Source: Sarea resinae
Lineage: Eukaryota
DNA: 64,000 nt
Direction: 5' to 3'
Assembly (NCBI GenBank): GCA_026026165.1
Contig: JAPEUD010000084.1
Coordinates: forward strand, 1 to 64,000
The notes under the pieces are model-generated. The model searched no databases. It was not told the origin of the DNA and worked only from the letters and a program-made list of their open reading frames with translations. A program made the position numbers and the translations under genes. Below, one piece after another: positions 12,367 through 17,957 of the stretch; position 1 is the stretch's first letter; each line of letters starts with the position of its first letter.

Positions 12367-14052
12367 ATGCCACCAAGACGCAATCCAGGGAACAGGCTTC
12401 CTCGCGGCGGTATGAGTGGCAATGACCGAAGGGTTACAAGATCACAGACCGGAGCAGCTCAACAACAACAGATACCCGGTCAACAGGTACCTCAAGATCC
12501 CGTTCAGCCTCCCCATGTTCAAACTTCTGTTAATCATCCATCTGCTAATCAACCACAAGTCCAACCGGCGCCTGAAGCCGGATCTCCCCCTAACCGTAGA
12601 ACTGCCACAACTCGTGCTCGTCATATCGAAGGATTCCCACCATTCAATACACCACTTCCCGCCAACGTAACAGCAGACGACGTGATGGAAAGATACCATA
12701 ACCACTTGGTTGGAGAAACCTTGCTGATGGTCCGAGAAAGATATACTATAGCTCAGATTGTCAGGAGGCTCAATCAACCACACATCCAACGCACTGCCAT
12801 GAGCCAGAGATCAAGCCACGCGATGAGAAACTTTCGCAGAGATCATCCCAACGTCGTACCGCCAACTTTGATGAGACGTGAGGCCCCCTTGGGAAATGTT
12901 GACAGCGCTTTCCCTTCCGCCAGAGATCCCTTGCCGGAAGGTCTAACAGATGAGCAGATTATTCAGTCGTACCCGAATCATTTGCGGGGCGAGATAGCTA
13001 GCCGTATTGCAGCCGAACTTTTCGAGGATGACTGGGCAGCCTTTGCCGCAGCCGTGACAGCTGCCACTGGCAACACTATGGGTGAGGGAACTCTTCGTCT
13101 CAGAGCGCAGAGGTACCGCGAAAGCCTCCCTGAGCCCCAGCCTGTTCTACAGGGCCGTCCCAACAATAGGGCCGAAAGGAGGGCGCAGAACGAGGCAACA
13201 GGATACCACGATGAAAACGATCAAGCTATGGCCGAGGGACCTGCCTATAATACAAGGGCGCAGCAAAGAATGACCCAAGCGCGGACTTCAACTGGCCCTG
13301 GTTCTGCCGACTTACAGATCGCTAATTTTCCAGGGTCTGACGAAGTTATGCCTGAGGGCTTAGATCCGCGAGAGATTGTCGACCGTTTCCCTAACCACCT
13401 TCACGGCTTGACCCTCGTGCGTGTCCTGGATGAGATCTCAGTGGACGAGATTGCGGCGCGTGTTGGTCACGGTCTTACTCCCGAAAACTTGACAGATAGA
13501 CGTTACGCTGCAGGGAACTGGGAGGAATTAGAGGAATCTTCAGAAGAGAGCACTGACAGTGAGAATCAGAACGGAGAGGAAGCAGATGCTGATCCCGTGC
13601 AGCCTCCCCAGCAGCAACCGGTCCAACCCGCTCCAGTCCAGAACGACCAGCTCGTGGGGGCCCGCCCCAATGAAAACGGGCAGCTATTCGCTGACGACGC
13701 TACTGAAGTCGAGAGGGTCCTCGAGTCGGGTAACGTGGATCCTGGCCTGCTCGACCTTACTCGGAGCCCGCAAGAAGCATACATGGGCCGTGGGAGCGGC
13801 CTTGAAGATATTGAGATGGAATTCGGCCTCAACCAATTGGGTGCCTTCGGAGACCTCGAGGGAATGAATATGGAAGCAAACCATTTCGAGGGCGGCGAGC
13901 CAGAAGGGAGTGTTGAGCAGGCCGATGGAGATGAGGGGCTCATTCAAGACGCTTTCGATGAGTTTATCAACCCGGATATGGTTGAGGATGACGAAGACGT
14001 GGATATGGAGGATAGTGAGAACGACGACGAGGATGTGGAGATGGAGGGTTAG
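12367..14052 (+). CDS. Intronless 561-aa hypothetical protein with three internal repeats and an acidic C-terminus
   Basis: Long uninterrupted ORF; three copies of FP..(L/M)P..l....i...(Y/F)xNHLxG; Q/P-rich linkers; D/E-rich tail. Confidence 0.85.
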   Translation: MPPRRNPGNRLPRGGMSGNDRRVTRSQTGAAQQQQIPGQQVPQDPVQPPHVQTSVNHPSANQPQVQPAPEAGSPPNRRTATTRARHIEGFPPFNTPLPANVTADDVMERYHNHLVGETLLMVRERYTIAQIVRRLNQPHIQRTAMSQRSSHAMRNFRRDHPNVVPPTLMRREAPLGNVDSAFPSARDPLPEGLTDEQIIQSYPNHLRGEIASRIAAELFEDDWAAFAAAVTAATGNTMGEGTLRLRAQRYRESLPEPQPVLQGRPNNRAERRAQNEATGYHDENDQAMAEGPAYNTRAQQRMTQARTSTGPGSADLQIANFPGSDEVMPEGLDPREIVDRFPNHLHGLTLVRVLDEISVDEIAARVGHGLTPENLTDRRYAAGNWEELEESSEESTDSENQNGEEADADPVQPPQQQPVQPAPVQNDQLVGARPNENGQLFADDATEVERVLESGNVDPGLLDLTRSPQEAYMGRGSGLEDIEMEFGLNQLGAFGDLEGMNMEANHFEGGEPEGSVEQADGDEGLIQDAFDEFINPDMVEDDEDVDMEDSENDDEDVEMEG

Positions 14053-15169
14053 GCCGTCTCCCTATCCTTTGACCTGGCTTGTCTCGTCTCCTCTTTTTAT
14101 GTTGTTGTTCTTTTGACAGCCTTTAGCGTCATTTATAGAAGAAACGGAGCTGGCCCCCTCCGTTGGATCAATTGTTTCCCGGCTCTTGCATACGAGCGAC
14201 TTGCATTGCACTGGTGGTGTTGAATGTCATAGCATGCTTCCTTTCCCTTTGTCAGTATGAATGATTCTTATCTGCTAAGTTGAGCTCCGAATAATAATAA
14301 TTGGATTCAAGTCTGCTTCTTTGCAGGATATATGGTGTGAACGAGATAATCGTAAATGCCTGAACGCCTGCGATTGTGGCCCCGTTCGTGGGCTCATTCA
14401 TGTCACTTCATCTCAAATGACGTTCTCCCCTTTCCGGGGGAGTCTCTTTGGAAGAGGAATAGGCGTTTGCGGGCACGTGCACCGCTAAAGAGCTTGTTTC
14501 TCGTCAACGTCTTTTCTTGGCGCTACTATAGTAGGAGCAGGGCAGCAACGGAGTCAAGTATCGGGTACGGATACCGTGGTGCGGCACTCGGCCTTCTTGG
14601 ACGAAGATCCCTAGTACTCTGTACTTCATACCTTGCGCTCGGGGTGACCAGCAACCTCGAATCAATAAGGTAATACCTCTTCCATTGGGCTATCCCGGCG
14701 TAGACTACAGTATTCGGGTTTGCAACAGAATGACTGCTCACTGCGTACAATCCCATCAGATACCCACCGTGCTGTCTTCCCATGATTGACCATCCAGACC
14801 ATCAGGCTTCATCTGCGTCTTCAAGTCGATAATCCCGACTGCTTTCCACTTGCCGTTGGAGAACGCCTCACTCCCTACGTCTTCCTCGACTTGTGCACCG
14901 GCATGTGGCCAGACTCGACTCACGCGGCGACCTCATGACAGCATCAATTAGTTCATAGGATCGAGACGAGACCCGATTACCGCGCCTCAGCCGTCTTCTT
15001 GCGGAGGATTGCCTTCCCACTGCGAGCAACACATACCGACATCTCGAATTAGCTGTCGTCTCACCCGTTCTAGCCGCGCAAGTTGTCGCCCTCCATTCCC
15101 ACTTTTCTCGCGCCGATTTGGTCCCGTCAAGAATCCGATTAGGCATGCTTGGACTATAGCGGCTAATTA

Positions 15170-15564
15170 ATGCACCCCTTCTCCATCCTCACCCTCGGTA
15201 TCTTTGTAGCCGGCTACACCACTGCGAGGTGGGATCTGGTTACAAGACTGTATGAGCTTGCAATATTTGCGTGGGATCACGGCGTTGTGGTATGCTGTCA
15301 TTGCGACTCTTCTAGTTTGATTCGGATCCAATTGACGATGTATCCATTCCACAGACACGTGCCGCCAAGGGATTCTTGATACTCTCAATCTTTTTCTTCC
15401 TATTCATCTTACCGGTCGAGAGAGTAGCTGCACGAGAGATTACTCTGGTACAATACTCCGCTTCCCGCGCATACTGGCAGCCAAGCTGACCCGCTTAGCA
15501 TCCTCGGTCTGGAACCGGCGGAATATCCGCGAGAGAGCAACTGAGACGCCGAGGATCTTTTTGA
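15170..15564 (+). CDS. 92-aa small membrane protein immediately upstream of GPI1
   Basis: Exons 15170-15289, 15355-15447, 15499-15564; introns GTATGC..TTGAC..CAG and GTACAA..CTGAC..TAG, both phase 0. Product MHPFSILTLGIFVAGYTTARWDLVTRLYELAIFAWDHGVVTRAAKGFLILSIFFFLFILPVERVAAREITLHPRSGTGGISAREQLRRRGSF with two hydrophobic segments. Confidence 0.8.
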
Positions 15565-15583
15565 TAGGAGGCGGGATGAGAGT

Positions 15584-17957
15584 ATGTGTGCAAAACATGG
15601 GTCGATGAGGATATTCTGGCCTTCCGATGTCCCTCGTGCCACTTCACCAGGTGTCATAATCGGATGGAGAAATTCGGAGCTAGATGTCTTCGTGGTGACG
15701 ATACTCAAGGATGTCGAGGTTAGCAATATTATCAAGCTTGGTTGAACGAAGATTCTGACATGTGCCATCGTCAGCCGAGGAGTGTCGAAAATGCTCTGAG
15801 AGTCGGCACTCTTTACCGCAATAGCCCACATCCTATCACAAAGATCTTCCTTCTTTGTGGCAAACCATCGATGAATGTCCTTGGTTCAATCAATTCAACA
15901 ACACCATCCAACATTTTCACTCCCTCACATATACATGTCTCTACCAGCCCAACGTCGCGGTTCCCTCGAATCCACTGTCCGAGCCATTGCAACATGACTG
16001 TCCAGGTGATCATGTACGACAGACCTAATTCCACCCGAATGCAGTATTTGTCGTTGAATCCAATCTCGCTTGCTCTGGAGGATAAAGTGGATGATTCGGG
16101 CAAAAGCCTGTCCTCTTTCGACGTCCTTGATGCTGCGGAGAAGAAAGAGCGAGACCGCAAGATGGAGTTGGTTGAGAAGATAAAGATGCATACCGTGATC
16201 AGACACCCTCCGACACAGAAAGAGCTCTCCCTTCCAACGATTCTAAATCAAGTCAATTGCTCTTACGAAATAGACAAGCTCTTGCGGAAGAACATTTCTC
16301 TTGTTGGCACTCGAACGAAAAGAAGCTTGAGCGTGAGTGAGAGAGTAGTGGAATCCGCGACGAGCGTCTGGGAATATTTCGTGTACAGCCTTTGGGACCT
16401 TTTCATCTACTGGATCTACCCTGTGATCACCCGATTGTTTATTGTTGGCTTGATATGTCATCGTATAGCTGCGGAGATGGTCCTCCGGGTTCTAGAATGG
16501 CGACTGAGACCCGACTACTCTGCGTTGAAGGACATTTCTGCTACCGCTCAACAGGTTGATATTCGATTACAGCAATTCTGCTATTGGCCCATACAATACC
16601 TAACCTTGCGTAAGCGCAAGAACGACTGGGAAAGTGTCACGGATAGCCATCCTGACTACATACGCTTCTACAATAGTTTATGGTTGGTTGCGAACGACGT
16701 GATTATCGGTATAGCTATAGGCTCTTATATCATTGAGAATGCTGGCTATGTCGCGCATCAGATAGACAGCATTCTGAGCGCTTACACCGTTGAGGGACTT
16801 CAGCGAATGATTTCCTGGTTGATGGGCTGGCCAGCCGGGCTCAAGCTGAACACCGAGCTGGCTAATTTCCTTGGAGACTTGTTTTTGTGGGTTATTGAGT
16901 ACTGGGCAGGTGGGTGTAGGGTGCCACCTACTAAACGGGCAACGAAAGCTTACCATATTGAACAGGCTGCGTCGCCAACTTGAGGCCTATTCTTCCTCAT
17001 CTAATCTACTTCATCGGCTTCTCGAGCTTTGCCGGAGCCACCATGCCAATCTCCCTCTTTTCAGATCTCCTCTCCATCCTCACATTGCACATATATTCAT
17101 TTTACGTTGCTTCGGCCCGGATCTGGAACTGGCAGCTCAGCATCATCATGTCCCTTTTTCACCTCTTTCGGGGGAAGAAGCGCAATGTCCTCCGCAATCG
17201 TATCGATTCTTGCGATTACGATCTCGATCAGCTTCTTCTTGGGACAATTCTCTTCACCGTATTGTTCTTTCTACTCCCAACGGTTCTCGTGTTCTACTTT
17301 ACCTTTGCATCGGCGCGTATGATCATCATTTCCCTCAAGGCTGTTTTAGATGCTCTTCTAGCTTGCTTAAACCACTTCCCGCTCTTCGCCCTGATGCTAC
17401 GTACAAAGGACTCTCGGCGTTTACCAGGTACGTGGGCCTATGCATTTTTGCATACCTTTGCACGATCGGCGCTAATACGTCTCTAGGTGGGATCCAATTT
17501 GAATTGCAAGATACCCAAGTACTTTCGAACGCTTTCCTTCAAAACCCTGACGCCGCACCTACCTCGTACATAATTCTAAAGGTACAATAAGCACTCTTCC
17601 TCCCCCCCCAGAGCAAATGCTGACACTTTTATTGTATAAAAGTCGGTCCCGCTATCCCTCCGCGCTATGTTCCACCAATACTTCCAACTTGGCGCCCGCA
17701 TCCGCAAACACTACCTCTCTCCGTCCGTGGTCCTCTGCCTCGCTACGGGCCGTTTCGTACCGCCCATTCATCTCAAGAATCTTTATAGCCTGCAATACAG
17801 CATGTTACCTGCTACCCGCGTCGGCATTATGGAAATCTGGTCCCGTCTAACGGAGAAACACCACCTGCAACCTGGCGCGAATATCAAATCCGCCACAATG
17901 ATGACGAATGGAAGGAAGGCGGCTGGTGGAGGGTATTCGAGGAGAAGCTATCATTGA
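15584..17957 (+). CDS. GPI1: GPI-GlcNAc transferase complex subunit Gpi1 (PIG-Q)
   Basis: MCAKHGSMRIFWPSD...VIIGWRNS first exon; LKDISATAQQVDIRLQQFCYWP, YNSLWLVANDVIIG, WLMGWPAGLKLNTEL, SLFHLFRGKKRNVLRNRIDSCDYDLDQLLLGTILFT; four introns. Confidence 0.96.

What the first reader, a model, noticed from the sequence alone, without database searches (positions are those of the whole stretch)
15170..15600. Hidden spliced 92-aa membrane microprotein ends 19 nt before the GPI1 start codon: probable bicistronic unit
Seen: three exons with canonical phase-0 introns give a 92-aa protein with two hydrophobic segments. It ends in a double stop (TGA TAG, 15562-15567), and the GPI1 ATG follows at 15584 in a different frame. 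Nineteen nucleotides leave no room for a terminator plus promoter, and neither read-through nor retention of intron 2 (in-frame TGA) can fuse the two. Established: the GPI-GlcNAc transferase contains tiny membrane subunits (Eri1/PIG-Y, DPM2), and human PIGY is itself made from a bicistronic mRNA. Inference: this is a eukaryotic dicistronic or conserved-uORF arrangement, and the microprotein may be an undescribed partner or regulator of Gpi1. I do not recognise it as Eri1/PIG-Y. My unverified recollection is that similar sequence is wrongly fused onto some annotated fungal Gpi1 proteins.
Basis: partly seen in the sequence, partly recalled or inferred. Interest (0 to 1): 0.8.

Follow-up and report, generated by a model that had tools for sequence, protein, structure and literature searches.

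The report
Conserved fungal microprotein–GPI1 two-gene unit
A strongly conserved 92-residue membrane microprotein gene sits only a few bases upstream of the GPI-anchor gene GPI1 across filamentous ascomycetes, most likely sharing one messenger RNA, and gene predictors often wrongly fuse the two.

Summary
The three-exon, 92-aa ORF (15170-15564) is present as described, and the GPI1 ATG (15584) follows its stop after 19 nt.

**The microprotein is a real gene.**
- Exon 1 has 1017 database relatives at 90-100% identity.
- 76 of 80 fetched loci give an intact 91-93-aa ORF, with introns at the same two phase-0 positions.
- Synonymous sites are saturated (pS 0.75) while pN is 0.16.
- The last 12 residues are the most constrained part of the protein.
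- The family reaches Morchella and matches no Pfam or PDB entry.

**The arrangement is conserved.**
- In 51 of 51 distinct loci that reach far enough, GPI1 starts 6-63 nt (median 20) after the stop, in any of the three frames.
- The microprotein ATG has a pyrimidine at -3 in 52 of 53 loci. The GPI1 ATG has a purine there in 47 of 51.
- Two contigs that look like transcripts carry both ORFs with the introns removed.

**Reading.** The best explanation is a subphylum-wide bicistronic mRNA, with GPI1 translated by reinitiation and/or leaky scanning. I found no direct RNA data for this organism. The microprotein's function is unknown, and a role as a GPI-GlcNAc transferase partner is speculation.

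The "hidden" label is only partly right. Many genomes annotate the 92-aa protein, and 86 of 240 inspected Gpi1 models (51 of 120 and 35 of 120) fuse it artefactually.

The parts
14053..15169 (+). Intergenic region upstream of the microprotein ATG, about 1.1 kb; candidate shared promoter and 5' leader
   Evidence: The preceding long ORF on the + strand ends at 14052. This 1.1 kb gap contrasts with the 19-nt gap before GPI1. The promoter itself was not mapped.
15170..15289 (+). Microprotein exon 1 (codons 1-40). The start ATG has T at -3.
   Evidence: Translation. 1017 relatives, 90-100% identical in the 120 listed. pN/pS 0.115. -3 base is T in 46, C in 6, G in 1 and A in 0 of 53 loci.
15290..15354 (+). 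Intron 1 (65 nt, phase 0, GT...AG)
   Evidence: Every modelled intron lies after codon 40 or after codon 71. Of 53 distinct loci, 32 have both introns, 5 have one and 16 have none.
15355..15447 (+). Microprotein exon 2 (codons 41-71; main hydrophobic helix)
   Evidence: Helix 39-71 in the AF2 model. pN/pS 0.35.
15448..15498 (+). Intron 2 (51 nt, phase 0, GTACAA...CTGAC...TAG). It holds an in-frame TGA if retained.
15499..15567 (+). Microprotein exon 3 (codons 72-92, ending ...ISAREQLRRRGSF), then stop TGA 15562-15564 and a second in-frame stop TAG 15565-15567
   Evidence: The C-terminal motif is invariant in 11 of 11 aligned proteins except for K/R at one position. pN/pS over the last 12 codons is 0.073. 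All six Arg and all six Leu codons are used at invariant positions.
15565..15583 (+). 19-nt spacer between the microprotein stop and the GPI1 ATG. It contains an out-of-frame ATG at 15576-15578.
   Evidence: The spacer is 6-63 nt (median 20) in 51 of 51 distinct loci. The ATG 8 nt upstream occurs in 29 of 51.
15584..17957 (+). GPI1 (PIG-Q homologue) coding region with introns. Exon 1 is 15584-15718 and the first intron 15719-15774. The later exon borders were not refined.
   Evidence: Pfam PF05024 at E 1.6e-40. tblastn with the L028 Gpi1 gives HSPs at 15584-15742, 15736-16911 and 16956-17852. The terminal ORF ends at 17957. The conserved start is M-x6-[MLIF]-R-[IV]-F-W-P.

Best explanation
The locus is a two-gene unit conserved across Pezizomycotina, most likely transcribed as one bicistronic mRNA.

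The first cistron is spliced. It encodes a 92-aa membrane microprotein with a short N-terminal hydrophobic helix, an amphipathic helix, one long hydrophobic helix and a basic tail that ends in an invariant RRRGSF.

The second cistron is GPI1, a subunit of the GPI-GlcNAc transferase. It begins 6-63 nt after the first stop codon, which leaves no room for a terminator and a promoter.

GPI1 would be translated in one of two ways:
- Ribosomes terminate on the microprotein ORF and reinitiate a few bases downstream. This has been shown to work in fungi with 9-bp spacers.
- Ribosomes leak past the microprotein AUG, whose context is conservatively weak.

The output of the essential Gpi1 would then be coupled to translation of the upstream ORF.

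Shown here: the gene is real, the protein is under purifying selection, and spacing, start-codon contexts and intron positions are conserved.

Inferred: the single transcript, the route of translation, and any functional link between the microprotein and Gpi1.
For: (1) The gene is real.
- Exon 1 has 1017 relatives.
- 92-aa stand-alone annotations exist in Eurotiomycetes, Dothideomycetes, Sordariomycetes and Leotiomycetes. One member is from Morchella.
- 76 of 80 metagenome loci give intact 91-93-aa ORFs with conserved phase-0 intron sites.
- Over 53 distinct CDS, mean pS is 0.747 and mean pN 0.158. Synonymous codons vary freely at invariant residues.

(2) The coupling is conserved.
- 51 of 51 distinct loci that extend far enough have the conserved GPI1 ATG 6-63 nt (median 20) after the stop.
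- In the window the upstream intergenic region is about 1.1 kb.

(3) Contigs that look like transcripts.
- L022 (1811 nt) carries both ORFs. It lacks exactly the three introns present in its relatives L037 and L038.
- L022 is nested among intron-bearing relatives. Its CDS is 94.1% identical to L037, and both are about 90% identical to L033.
- L028 (2868 nt) consists of a 293-nt leader, the intronless microORF, a 29-nt spacer, an uninterrupted 720-aa GPI1 and about 100 nt more.
- In one 90% cluster, 719-aa Gpi1 ORFs lie on Logan contigs of about 2.9 kb, while longer contigs give 301-306-aa pieces. A 92-aa protein also lies on a 2939-nt contig.

(4) Start-codon contexts.
- The microORF ATG has T at -3 in 46, C in 6, G in 1 and A in 0 of 53 loci.
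- The GPI1 ATG has G at -3 in 35, A in 12, T in 3 and C in 1 of 51 loci.
- Neurospora shows informative Kozak contexts and leaky scanning (PMC7049704, passages read).

(5) Precedent.
- A 9-bp fungal intergenic sequence drives reinitiation after full-length ORFs in yeasts and in Aspergillus nidulans (PMC10352335, passages and section 6 read).
- PYURF-PIGY is cited as a characterised human bicistronic transcript (PMC13303939, passage).
Against: - I found no RNA data for the window's organism. No RNA run was listed, which is no evidence either way.
- L022 and L028 come from unnamed metagenome-collection records. Their cDNA nature is inferred, not recorded.
- Sixteen of 53 distinct loci have intronless microORFs, several on long genomic contigs. 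Absence of introns alone therefore does not prove cDNA.
- No locus has a clear path for pure leaky scanning. 0 of 51 are free of intervening ATGs: 25 have one, 22 have two and 4 have three.
- ATGs inside the microORF are not clearly depleted: 1.02 observed against 1.26 expected.
- In 29 of 51 loci an out-of-frame ATG lies 8 nt before the GPI1 ATG, 28 of them with a purine at -3. It should intercept scanning ribosomes.
- A GPI1 transcription start inside the small gene cannot be excluded.
Confidence: 0.7

Rival explanations
1. Two overlapping but separate transcripts. GPI1 has its own transcription start inside the microprotein gene, so its 5' UTR overlaps exon 2 or exon 3. The microprotein mRNA ends inside or beyond GPI1. 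The tight spacing would then reflect genome compaction, not translational coupling.
For: No direct RNA evidence was obtained for the window. Polycistronic read-through transcripts that coexist with independently transcribed ones are reported for 321 loci in Fusarium graminearum (preprint 10.1101/2021.11.08.467853, passages read). All 51 loci have intervening ATGs that would hinder translation of GPI1 from a bicistronic mRNA.
Against: A spacer of 6-63 nt kept in 51 of 51 distinct loci across classes is hard to explain without coupling. Even under this model the microprotein mRNA must run into GPI1, because there is no room for 3'-end signals. L022 and L028 carry both ORFs on one spliced-looking contig. 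The opposite start-codon contexts of the two ORFs fit a shared leader.
Confidence: 0.15
2. The small ORF is mainly a regulatory upstream ORF. Its conserved C-terminal nascent peptide would act inside the ribosome at termination to set how many ribosomes reach the GPI1 AUG. The released peptide would have little function of its own.
For: The last 12 codons are the most constrained part, with pN/pS 0.073. They are kept even in divergent members whose N-terminus differs (P0226, P0158). The stop lies only 6-63 nt before the GPI1 ATG.
Against: The whole 92 aa is constrained, including exon 1 at pN/pS 0.115. The protein folds confidently as a helical, membrane-like protein at pLDDT 84. From my own knowledge, 92 codons is much longer than known stalling uORFs. 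The two roles are not exclusive.
Confidence: 0.1
3. One gene with alternative splicing. Exons 1-2 can be joined to an alternative acceptor just before GPI1 (AG 15552-15553 in the window), giving a Gpi1 isoform with an N-terminal membrane extension.
For: In the window the alternative acceptor is in phase with GPI1 (read; 2 compatible acceptors). 23 of 35 loci with intron 2 have at least one phase-compatible AG. Many database models are such fusions.
Against: 12 of 35 loci with intron 2 have no compatible acceptor, and 16 of 51 lack intron 2 altogether. The GPI1 frame is open for a median of only 9 codons upstream of its ATG. Junctions in the annotated fusions differ from model to model. Exon 3 and its stop are under strong purifying selection.
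Confidence: 0.05

Closest known systems
Human PYURF-PIGY bicistronic transcript (and other two-protein mRNAs such as MIURF-MIEF1)
   Same: Two conserved, non-overlapping protein ORFs lie on one strand. The upstream one encodes a small protein and the downstream one a GPI-GlcNAc transferase subunit (PMC13303939, passage read).
   Different: The downstream cistron here is the large subunit Gpi1/PIG-Q, not the tiny PIG-Y. The upstream ORF is spliced. The spacer is only 6-63 nt. The unit is conserved across a fungal subphylum. No sequence relationship to either human protein was tested or found.
Glarea lozoyensis glpks3-glnrps7 operon and its IGG1/IGG6 intergenic sequence
   Same: A fungal (Leotiomycetes) bicistronic mRNA in which a very short intergenic sequence allows reinitiation on the second ORF (PMC4471562, search listing and abstract start; PMC10352335, passages and section 6).
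   Different: That case is a lineage-specific secondary-metabolism pair. This one joins a microprotein to an essential housekeeping gene and is kept in every class sampled. The spacer sequences here are not conserved. I did not see the IGG6 sequence, so no comparison was made.
Eri1 / PIG-Y and DPM2, the small membrane subunits or regulators of GPI-GlcNAc transferase
   Same: Small size, predicted membrane helices, and a link (here only genomic) to the first enzyme of GPI synthesis (PMC3184424, passage read).
   Different: No detectable sequence similarity: Pfam found nothing at E<=10 for four 92-aa members. No PDB sequence match (best E 1.7) and no fold match. Association with the enzyme is untested.
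Conserved-peptide regulatory uORFs (such as the fungal arginine attenuator peptide; recalled, not looked up)
   Same: An upstream ORF whose peptide sequence, not its RNA, is conserved, ending just before the main ORF.
   Different: Three to four times longer, spliced, hydrophobic, and constrained over its whole length.

Membership tests
Gpi1 / PIG-Q (Pfam PF05024), downstream gene | Match to the Gpi1 family profile above the curated cut-off | tested here: met
   139.7 bits against a cut-off of 22.2, E 1.6e-40, for 15724-16983. 661 relatives at E<=1e-30, best 72% identity.
Eri1 / PIG-Y | Sequence similarity to the PIG-Y family profile | tested here: not met
   No Pfam family at E<=10 for P0008, P0103 and P0032, and only a sub-threshold DUF3593 row for P0055. 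That Pfam holds a PIG-Y model is recalled, not checked.
Eri1 / PIG-Y | Physical association with Gpi3/PIG-A in the GPI-GlcNAc transferase complex | not testable with these tools
   No Gpi3 sequence of a matching organism was in hand. It needs co-immunoprecipitation.
DPM2 | Sequence similarity to the DPM2 family profile | tested here: not met
   No Pfam hit. That Pfam holds a DPM2 model is recalled.
Eukaryotic bicistronic mRNA encoding two conserved proteins | Two non-overlapping same-strand ORFs separated by too little sequence for 3'-end formation plus a promoter, conserved across species | tested here: met
   Spacer 19 nt in the window, and 6-63 nt in 51 of 51 distinct loci.
Eukaryotic bicistronic mRNA encoding two conserved proteins | Both ORFs under purifying selection at the protein level | tested here: met
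   MicroORF pN 0.158 against pS 0.747. Gpi1 alignment has mean column identity 74% with many invariant columns.
Eukaryotic bicistronic mRNA encoding two conserved proteins | A mature transcript that spans both ORFs | tested here: inconclusive
   L022 and L028 look like spliced transcripts carrying both ORFs, and the Logan contig lengths fit. Their RNA origin is inferred. No RNA run was listed for the window.
Eukaryotic bicistronic mRNA encoding two conserved proteins | Both ORFs translated from that transcript | not testable with these tools
   Needs ribosome profiling, tagging or mass spectrometry.
Peptide-dependent regulatory uORF | Ribosome stalling that depends on the nascent peptide | not testable with these tools
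   Only the conservation of the C-terminal 12 residues is known.

The most novel reading that the evidence does not exclude
The microprotein is a so far unrecognised, Pezizomycotina-specific small subunit or regulator of the GPI-GlcNAc transferase, a functional counterpart of Eri1/PIG-Y/DPM2. It would be made in fixed proportion to Gpi1 from one mRNA.

Its invariant cytosolic tail ...RRRGSF matches the basic RRxS motif of protein kinase A substrates (recalled knowledge). That tail would be the point where cAMP-PKA signalling meets GPI synthesis in filamentous fungi. It would play the part that the Ras-Eri1 link plays in yeasts (PMC11294708 and the preprint 10.1101/2024.02.28.582498, seen as search listing and abstract starts only).
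Probability: 0.2. Interest if true: 0.85.

Novelty: new member of a known kind. Interest (0 to 1): 0.62.

Why it matters
- **A rare kind of gene pair.** Deeply conserved bicistronic protein-coding genes are rare in eukaryotes. This one involves an essential enzyme subunit of GPI-anchor synthesis, a pathway studied as an antifungal target. It is kept in all classes of filamentous ascomycetes sampled here, from Morchella to Aspergillus, Neurospora relatives and lichen-associated lineages.
- **A natural system for studying translation.** It could show how fungal ribosomes translate a second cistron across a 6-63-nt spacer.
- **An uncharacterised protein.** It points to an extremely conserved membrane microprotein of unknown function.
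- **A practical annotation problem.** About a third to two fifths of the inspected Gpi1 gene models are wrongly extended with microprotein sequence. The name "phosphatidylinositol glycan, class Q" has spread to the 92-aa protein, presumably through those fusions.

Tried and rejected
**RNA evidence**
- The look-up of sequencing runs for window 14900-16400: no RNA holder listed.
- No whole genome is held for the window.

**Binding to Gpi1**
- Complex prediction with Gpi1 (A2) and the microprotein (A3) returned "no answer": score 0.00, alignments not used, partner fold uncertain. This is no evidence either way.

**Family and fold searches for the microprotein**
- Pfam, PDB sequences (best E 1.7) and Foldseek against PDB (best E 6) found nothing.
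- The ESM Atlas returned only its own clusters, "pig-Q" and a 109-aa one, both Ascomycota.
- A profile search of 1.84 billion representatives gave 256 hits at E<=0.001. The 12 I inspected belonged to the same family or were fusions. No member from outside it was seen among the 150 listed.

**Readings rejected**
- RNA-level conservation is rejected. Synonymous codons vary freely.
- Fusion by read-through is rejected as a conserved feature. The frames are 20/18/13.
- Fusion by alternative splicing is not conserved.
- Pure leaky scanning is doubtful, because every locus has intervening ATGs.

**Earlier findings and literature**
- Earlier findings of this scan: nothing.
- No paper held the terms bicistronic + GPI1 + fungi.
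- Three further searches listed nothing describing this locus.
- The Fusarium Iso-Seq preprint required ORFs of 100 aa, so it would have missed a 92-aa ORF.
- PMC1266422, the original PIG-Y paper, is not held.
- PMC4599673 holds none of the terms sought.

The analysis was then done with a stored protein read from file.
Full report
**1. The observation**

- The ATG is at 15170. Exon 1 is 15170-15289 (40 aa).
- Intron 1 is 65 nt (15290-15354, GTATGC...CAG).
- Exon 2 is 15355-15447 (31 aa).
- Intron 2 is 51 nt (15448-15498, GTACAA, a CTGAC branch-like site, TAG).
- Exon 3 is 15499-15561 (21 aa), followed by TGA TAG at 15562-15567.
- Both introns are phase 0.

If intron 2 is retained, translation meets a TGA at 15487-15489. 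The GPI1 ATG at 15584 lies 19 nt after the TGA, in another frame. The large downstream ORF matches Pfam Gpi1 (PF05024, E 1.6e-40). My first translation of exon 1 was off by one base.

**2. The small ORF is a real, strongly constrained gene**

Database relatives:
- Exon 1 alone found 1017 proteins at E<=0.01 among 1019 candidates. The 120 listed are 90-100% identical to it.
- Among them are stand-alone 92-aa proteins annotated in Aspergillus, Penicillium, Thermoascus, Delphinella, Lineolata, Karstenula, Phyllosticta, Torrubiella, Coniochaeta and Bisporella.
- These show the same exon 2 and the same C-terminus...HPR-x4-G-[IV]-SAREQL[RK]RRGSF.
- A more divergent member comes from Morchella importuna, so the family reaches Pezizomycetes.
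- A profile search of 1.84 billion representatives gave only 256 hits at E<=0.001. The 12 I inspected were family members or fusions with neighbouring genes.
- No Pfam family, PDB sequence or PDB fold matches.
- The ESM Atlas holds the family as Ascomycota clusters auto-named "pig-Q".

Related DNA loci:
- I fetched 80 related loci from the metagenome collection. 390 pattern matches gave 144 confirmed relatives, and the best 80 were kept.
- I modelled the gene in each locus.
- 76 of 80, and the window, give an intact 91-93-aa ORF. Of the four failures, three have no recognisable end (L021, L058, L070). The fourth (L054) gave no model; its match starts at base 1 and at query residue 6.
- Introns, where present, always sit after codon 40 and after codon 71.
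- Among the 53 distinct coding sequences (less than 97% identical, window included), 32 have both introns, 5 have one and 16 have none.

Selection:
- At invariant residues all synonymous codons are used. For example, six Arg codons appear at R89 and six Leu codons at L87.
- Mean pairwise pS is 0.747, which is saturated. Mean pN is 0.158.
- pN/pS is 0.115 for exon 1, 0.35 for exon 2 and 0.073 for the last 12 codons.
- Conservation therefore acts on the protein, not on an RNA element.

Structure:
- AlphaFold2 with 39 sequences gives mean pLDDT 84 and helices 2-18, 21-36, 39-71 and 82-88.

**3. The link to GPI1 is conserved**

- GPI1 begins with a conserved M-x6-[MLIF]-R-[IV]-F-W-P. The first Met corresponds to 15584 in the window.
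- 51 of the 53 distinct loci extend far enough to test. In all 51 this ATG follows the microprotein stop after 6-63 nt, with a median of 20.
- The two remaining contigs end 18 and 45 nt after the stop.
- The relative frame is spread over all three possibilities (20/18/13).
- All three stop codons are used (TAG 27, TGA 16, TAA 8).
- The second in-frame stop seen in the window is not conserved.
- In the window the gene upstream ends at 14052. The unit therefore has about 1.1 kb of upstream intergenic DNA, against 19 nt between the two ORFs.

**4. Is it one transcript?**

No RNA run could be listed for this organism, and no genome is held. The evidence is therefore indirect.

- **L022.** This 1811-nt contig carries both ORFs. 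It aligns to its relatives L037 and L038 in four blocks that skip exactly the two microORF introns and the first GPI1 intron. Its microORF is 94.1% identical to that of L037. Both are about 90% identical to L033, and both L037 and L033 have the introns. L022 is therefore most simply a spliced transcript.
- **L028.** This 2868-nt contig consists of a 293-nt leader, the microORF, a 29-nt spacer, an uninterrupted 720-aa GPI1 and about 100 nt more. Its Gpi1 is 90% identical to Microdochium proteins.
- **Logan contigs.** In one 90% cluster, 719-aa Gpi1 ORFs lie on contigs of 2918-2939 nt (21 contigs). Contigs of 5-23 kb carry only 301-306-aa pieces. A 92-aa protein also lies on a 2939-nt contig. 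This fits mRNAs of about 2.9 kb that hold both ORFs. I could not fetch those contigs.

A caution applies. Several long genomic contigs have intronless microORFs (L004, L006, L015, L023). Lack of introns alone is therefore not proof of cDNA.

**5. How GPI1 might be translated**

Points for leaky scanning:
- The microORF ATG has T at -3 in 46, C in 6, G in 1 and A in 0 of 53 loci, while the neighbouring positions vary.
- The GPI1 ATG has a purine at -3 in 47 of 51.
- A weak first AUG followed by a strong second AUG is the signature of leaky scanning. Kozak context is informative in Neurospora (PMC7049704, passages).

Points against pure leaky scanning:
- Every one of the 51 loci has one to three further ATGs before the GPI1 ATG.
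- ATGs inside the microORF are not clearly depleted: 1.02 observed against 1.26 expected from synonymous shuffles.
- 29 of 51 loci have an out-of-frame ATG 8 nt before the GPI1 ATG, 28 of them with a purine at -3.

Points for reinitiation after termination:
- It has a direct fungal precedent. A 9-bp intergenic sequence derived from a Glarea lozoyensis operon gave a downstream protein at 31-76% of the upstream one in three quarters of the tested constructs.
- It worked in three yeasts and in Aspergillus nidulans (PMC10352335, passages and section 6).

I therefore favour a bicistronic mRNA with reinitiation, leaky scanning or both. I cannot rank the two firmly.

**6. Fusions are artefacts**

- Of the 120 best Gpi1 hits to the L028 protein, 51 carry the microprotein N-terminus and 60 start at the conserved Met.
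- Of the 120 best hits to the window's exon 2, 35 are fused and 53 start at the conserved Met.
- The junctions differ from model to model, as expected when predictors invent introns to pass a stop codon.
- It probably explains why many 92-aa proteins are named "phosphatidylinositol glycan, class Q".
- A real fusion by alternative splicing is possible in the window (acceptor AG at 15552-15553). It is not conserved: 12 of 35 loci with intron 2 have no phase-compatible acceptor, 16 of 51 lack intron 2, and the GPI1 frame is open for a median of only 9 codons upstream.

**7. Function**

- Nothing here shows what the microprotein does.
- The complex prediction with Gpi1 gave no verdict, which counts neither way.
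- From established knowledge, the GPI-GlcNAc transferase contains small membrane subunits (PMC3184424, passage). Bicistronic partners are sometimes functionally linked.
- A role as a partner or regulator of the enzyme is therefore a reasonable hypothesis. I put it at about one in five to one in three.
- The invariant basic tail ending in RRRGSF resembles a protein kinase A site (recalled). It is the most constrained part of the protein.

**8. Novelty**

- The protein is already annotated in many genomes, so it is not hidden.
- Four literature searches found no description of the conserved microprotein-GPI1 unit.
- It is best filed as a new, unusually deep and widespread member of the known class of eukaryotic bicistronic genes.
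- The window's own organism has no close relative in the protein collection. The best Gpi1 identity is 72%, to Geoglossum simile.

Noticed in passing
window 15576-15578; spacers of L001, L004, L009, L013, L015, L020, L026 and others: An out-of-frame ATG lies 8 nt before the GPI1 ATG (pattern ATG-NN-GA-N-ATG) in 29 of 51 distinct loci, 28 of them with a purine at -3. It opens short ORFs of 3-27 codons that overlap the GPI1 start. Its role is unexplained.
   Followed up: partly
proteins P0276, P0302, P0335, P0359, P0360, P0364 and P0149: Some Sordariomycete Gpi1 models of 856-892 aa also carry Pfam PF05254 at the N-terminus. A small gene upstream of the microprotein gene is therefore fused in as well. 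tblastn with the first 80 residues of P0149 found no such gene in the window.
   Followed up: partly
proteins P0411, P0421, P0426, P0427, P0429, P0432 and others: About twenty Aspergillus-group models of 1500-1660 aa combine the Gpi1 domain with MutS/MSH2 domains. This is probably another neighbour-gene fusion in annotation.
   Followed up: no
window 15775-16911: The window's Gpi1 exon 2 is at most 72% identical to any listed protein (best: Geoglossum simile). The source organism seems to have no close relative in the protein collection.
   Followed up: no
loci L001-L080: The two microORF introns were lost in various combinations. Among 53 distinct loci, 16 have none and 5 have one. The intronless forms include long genomic contigs such as L006 and L015.
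   Followed up: partly
window 15409-15885, minus strand: A 158-aa stop-to-stop ORF runs antisense across the microprotein-GPI1 junction. No evidence was sought, and it is probably a chance frame.
   Followed up: no
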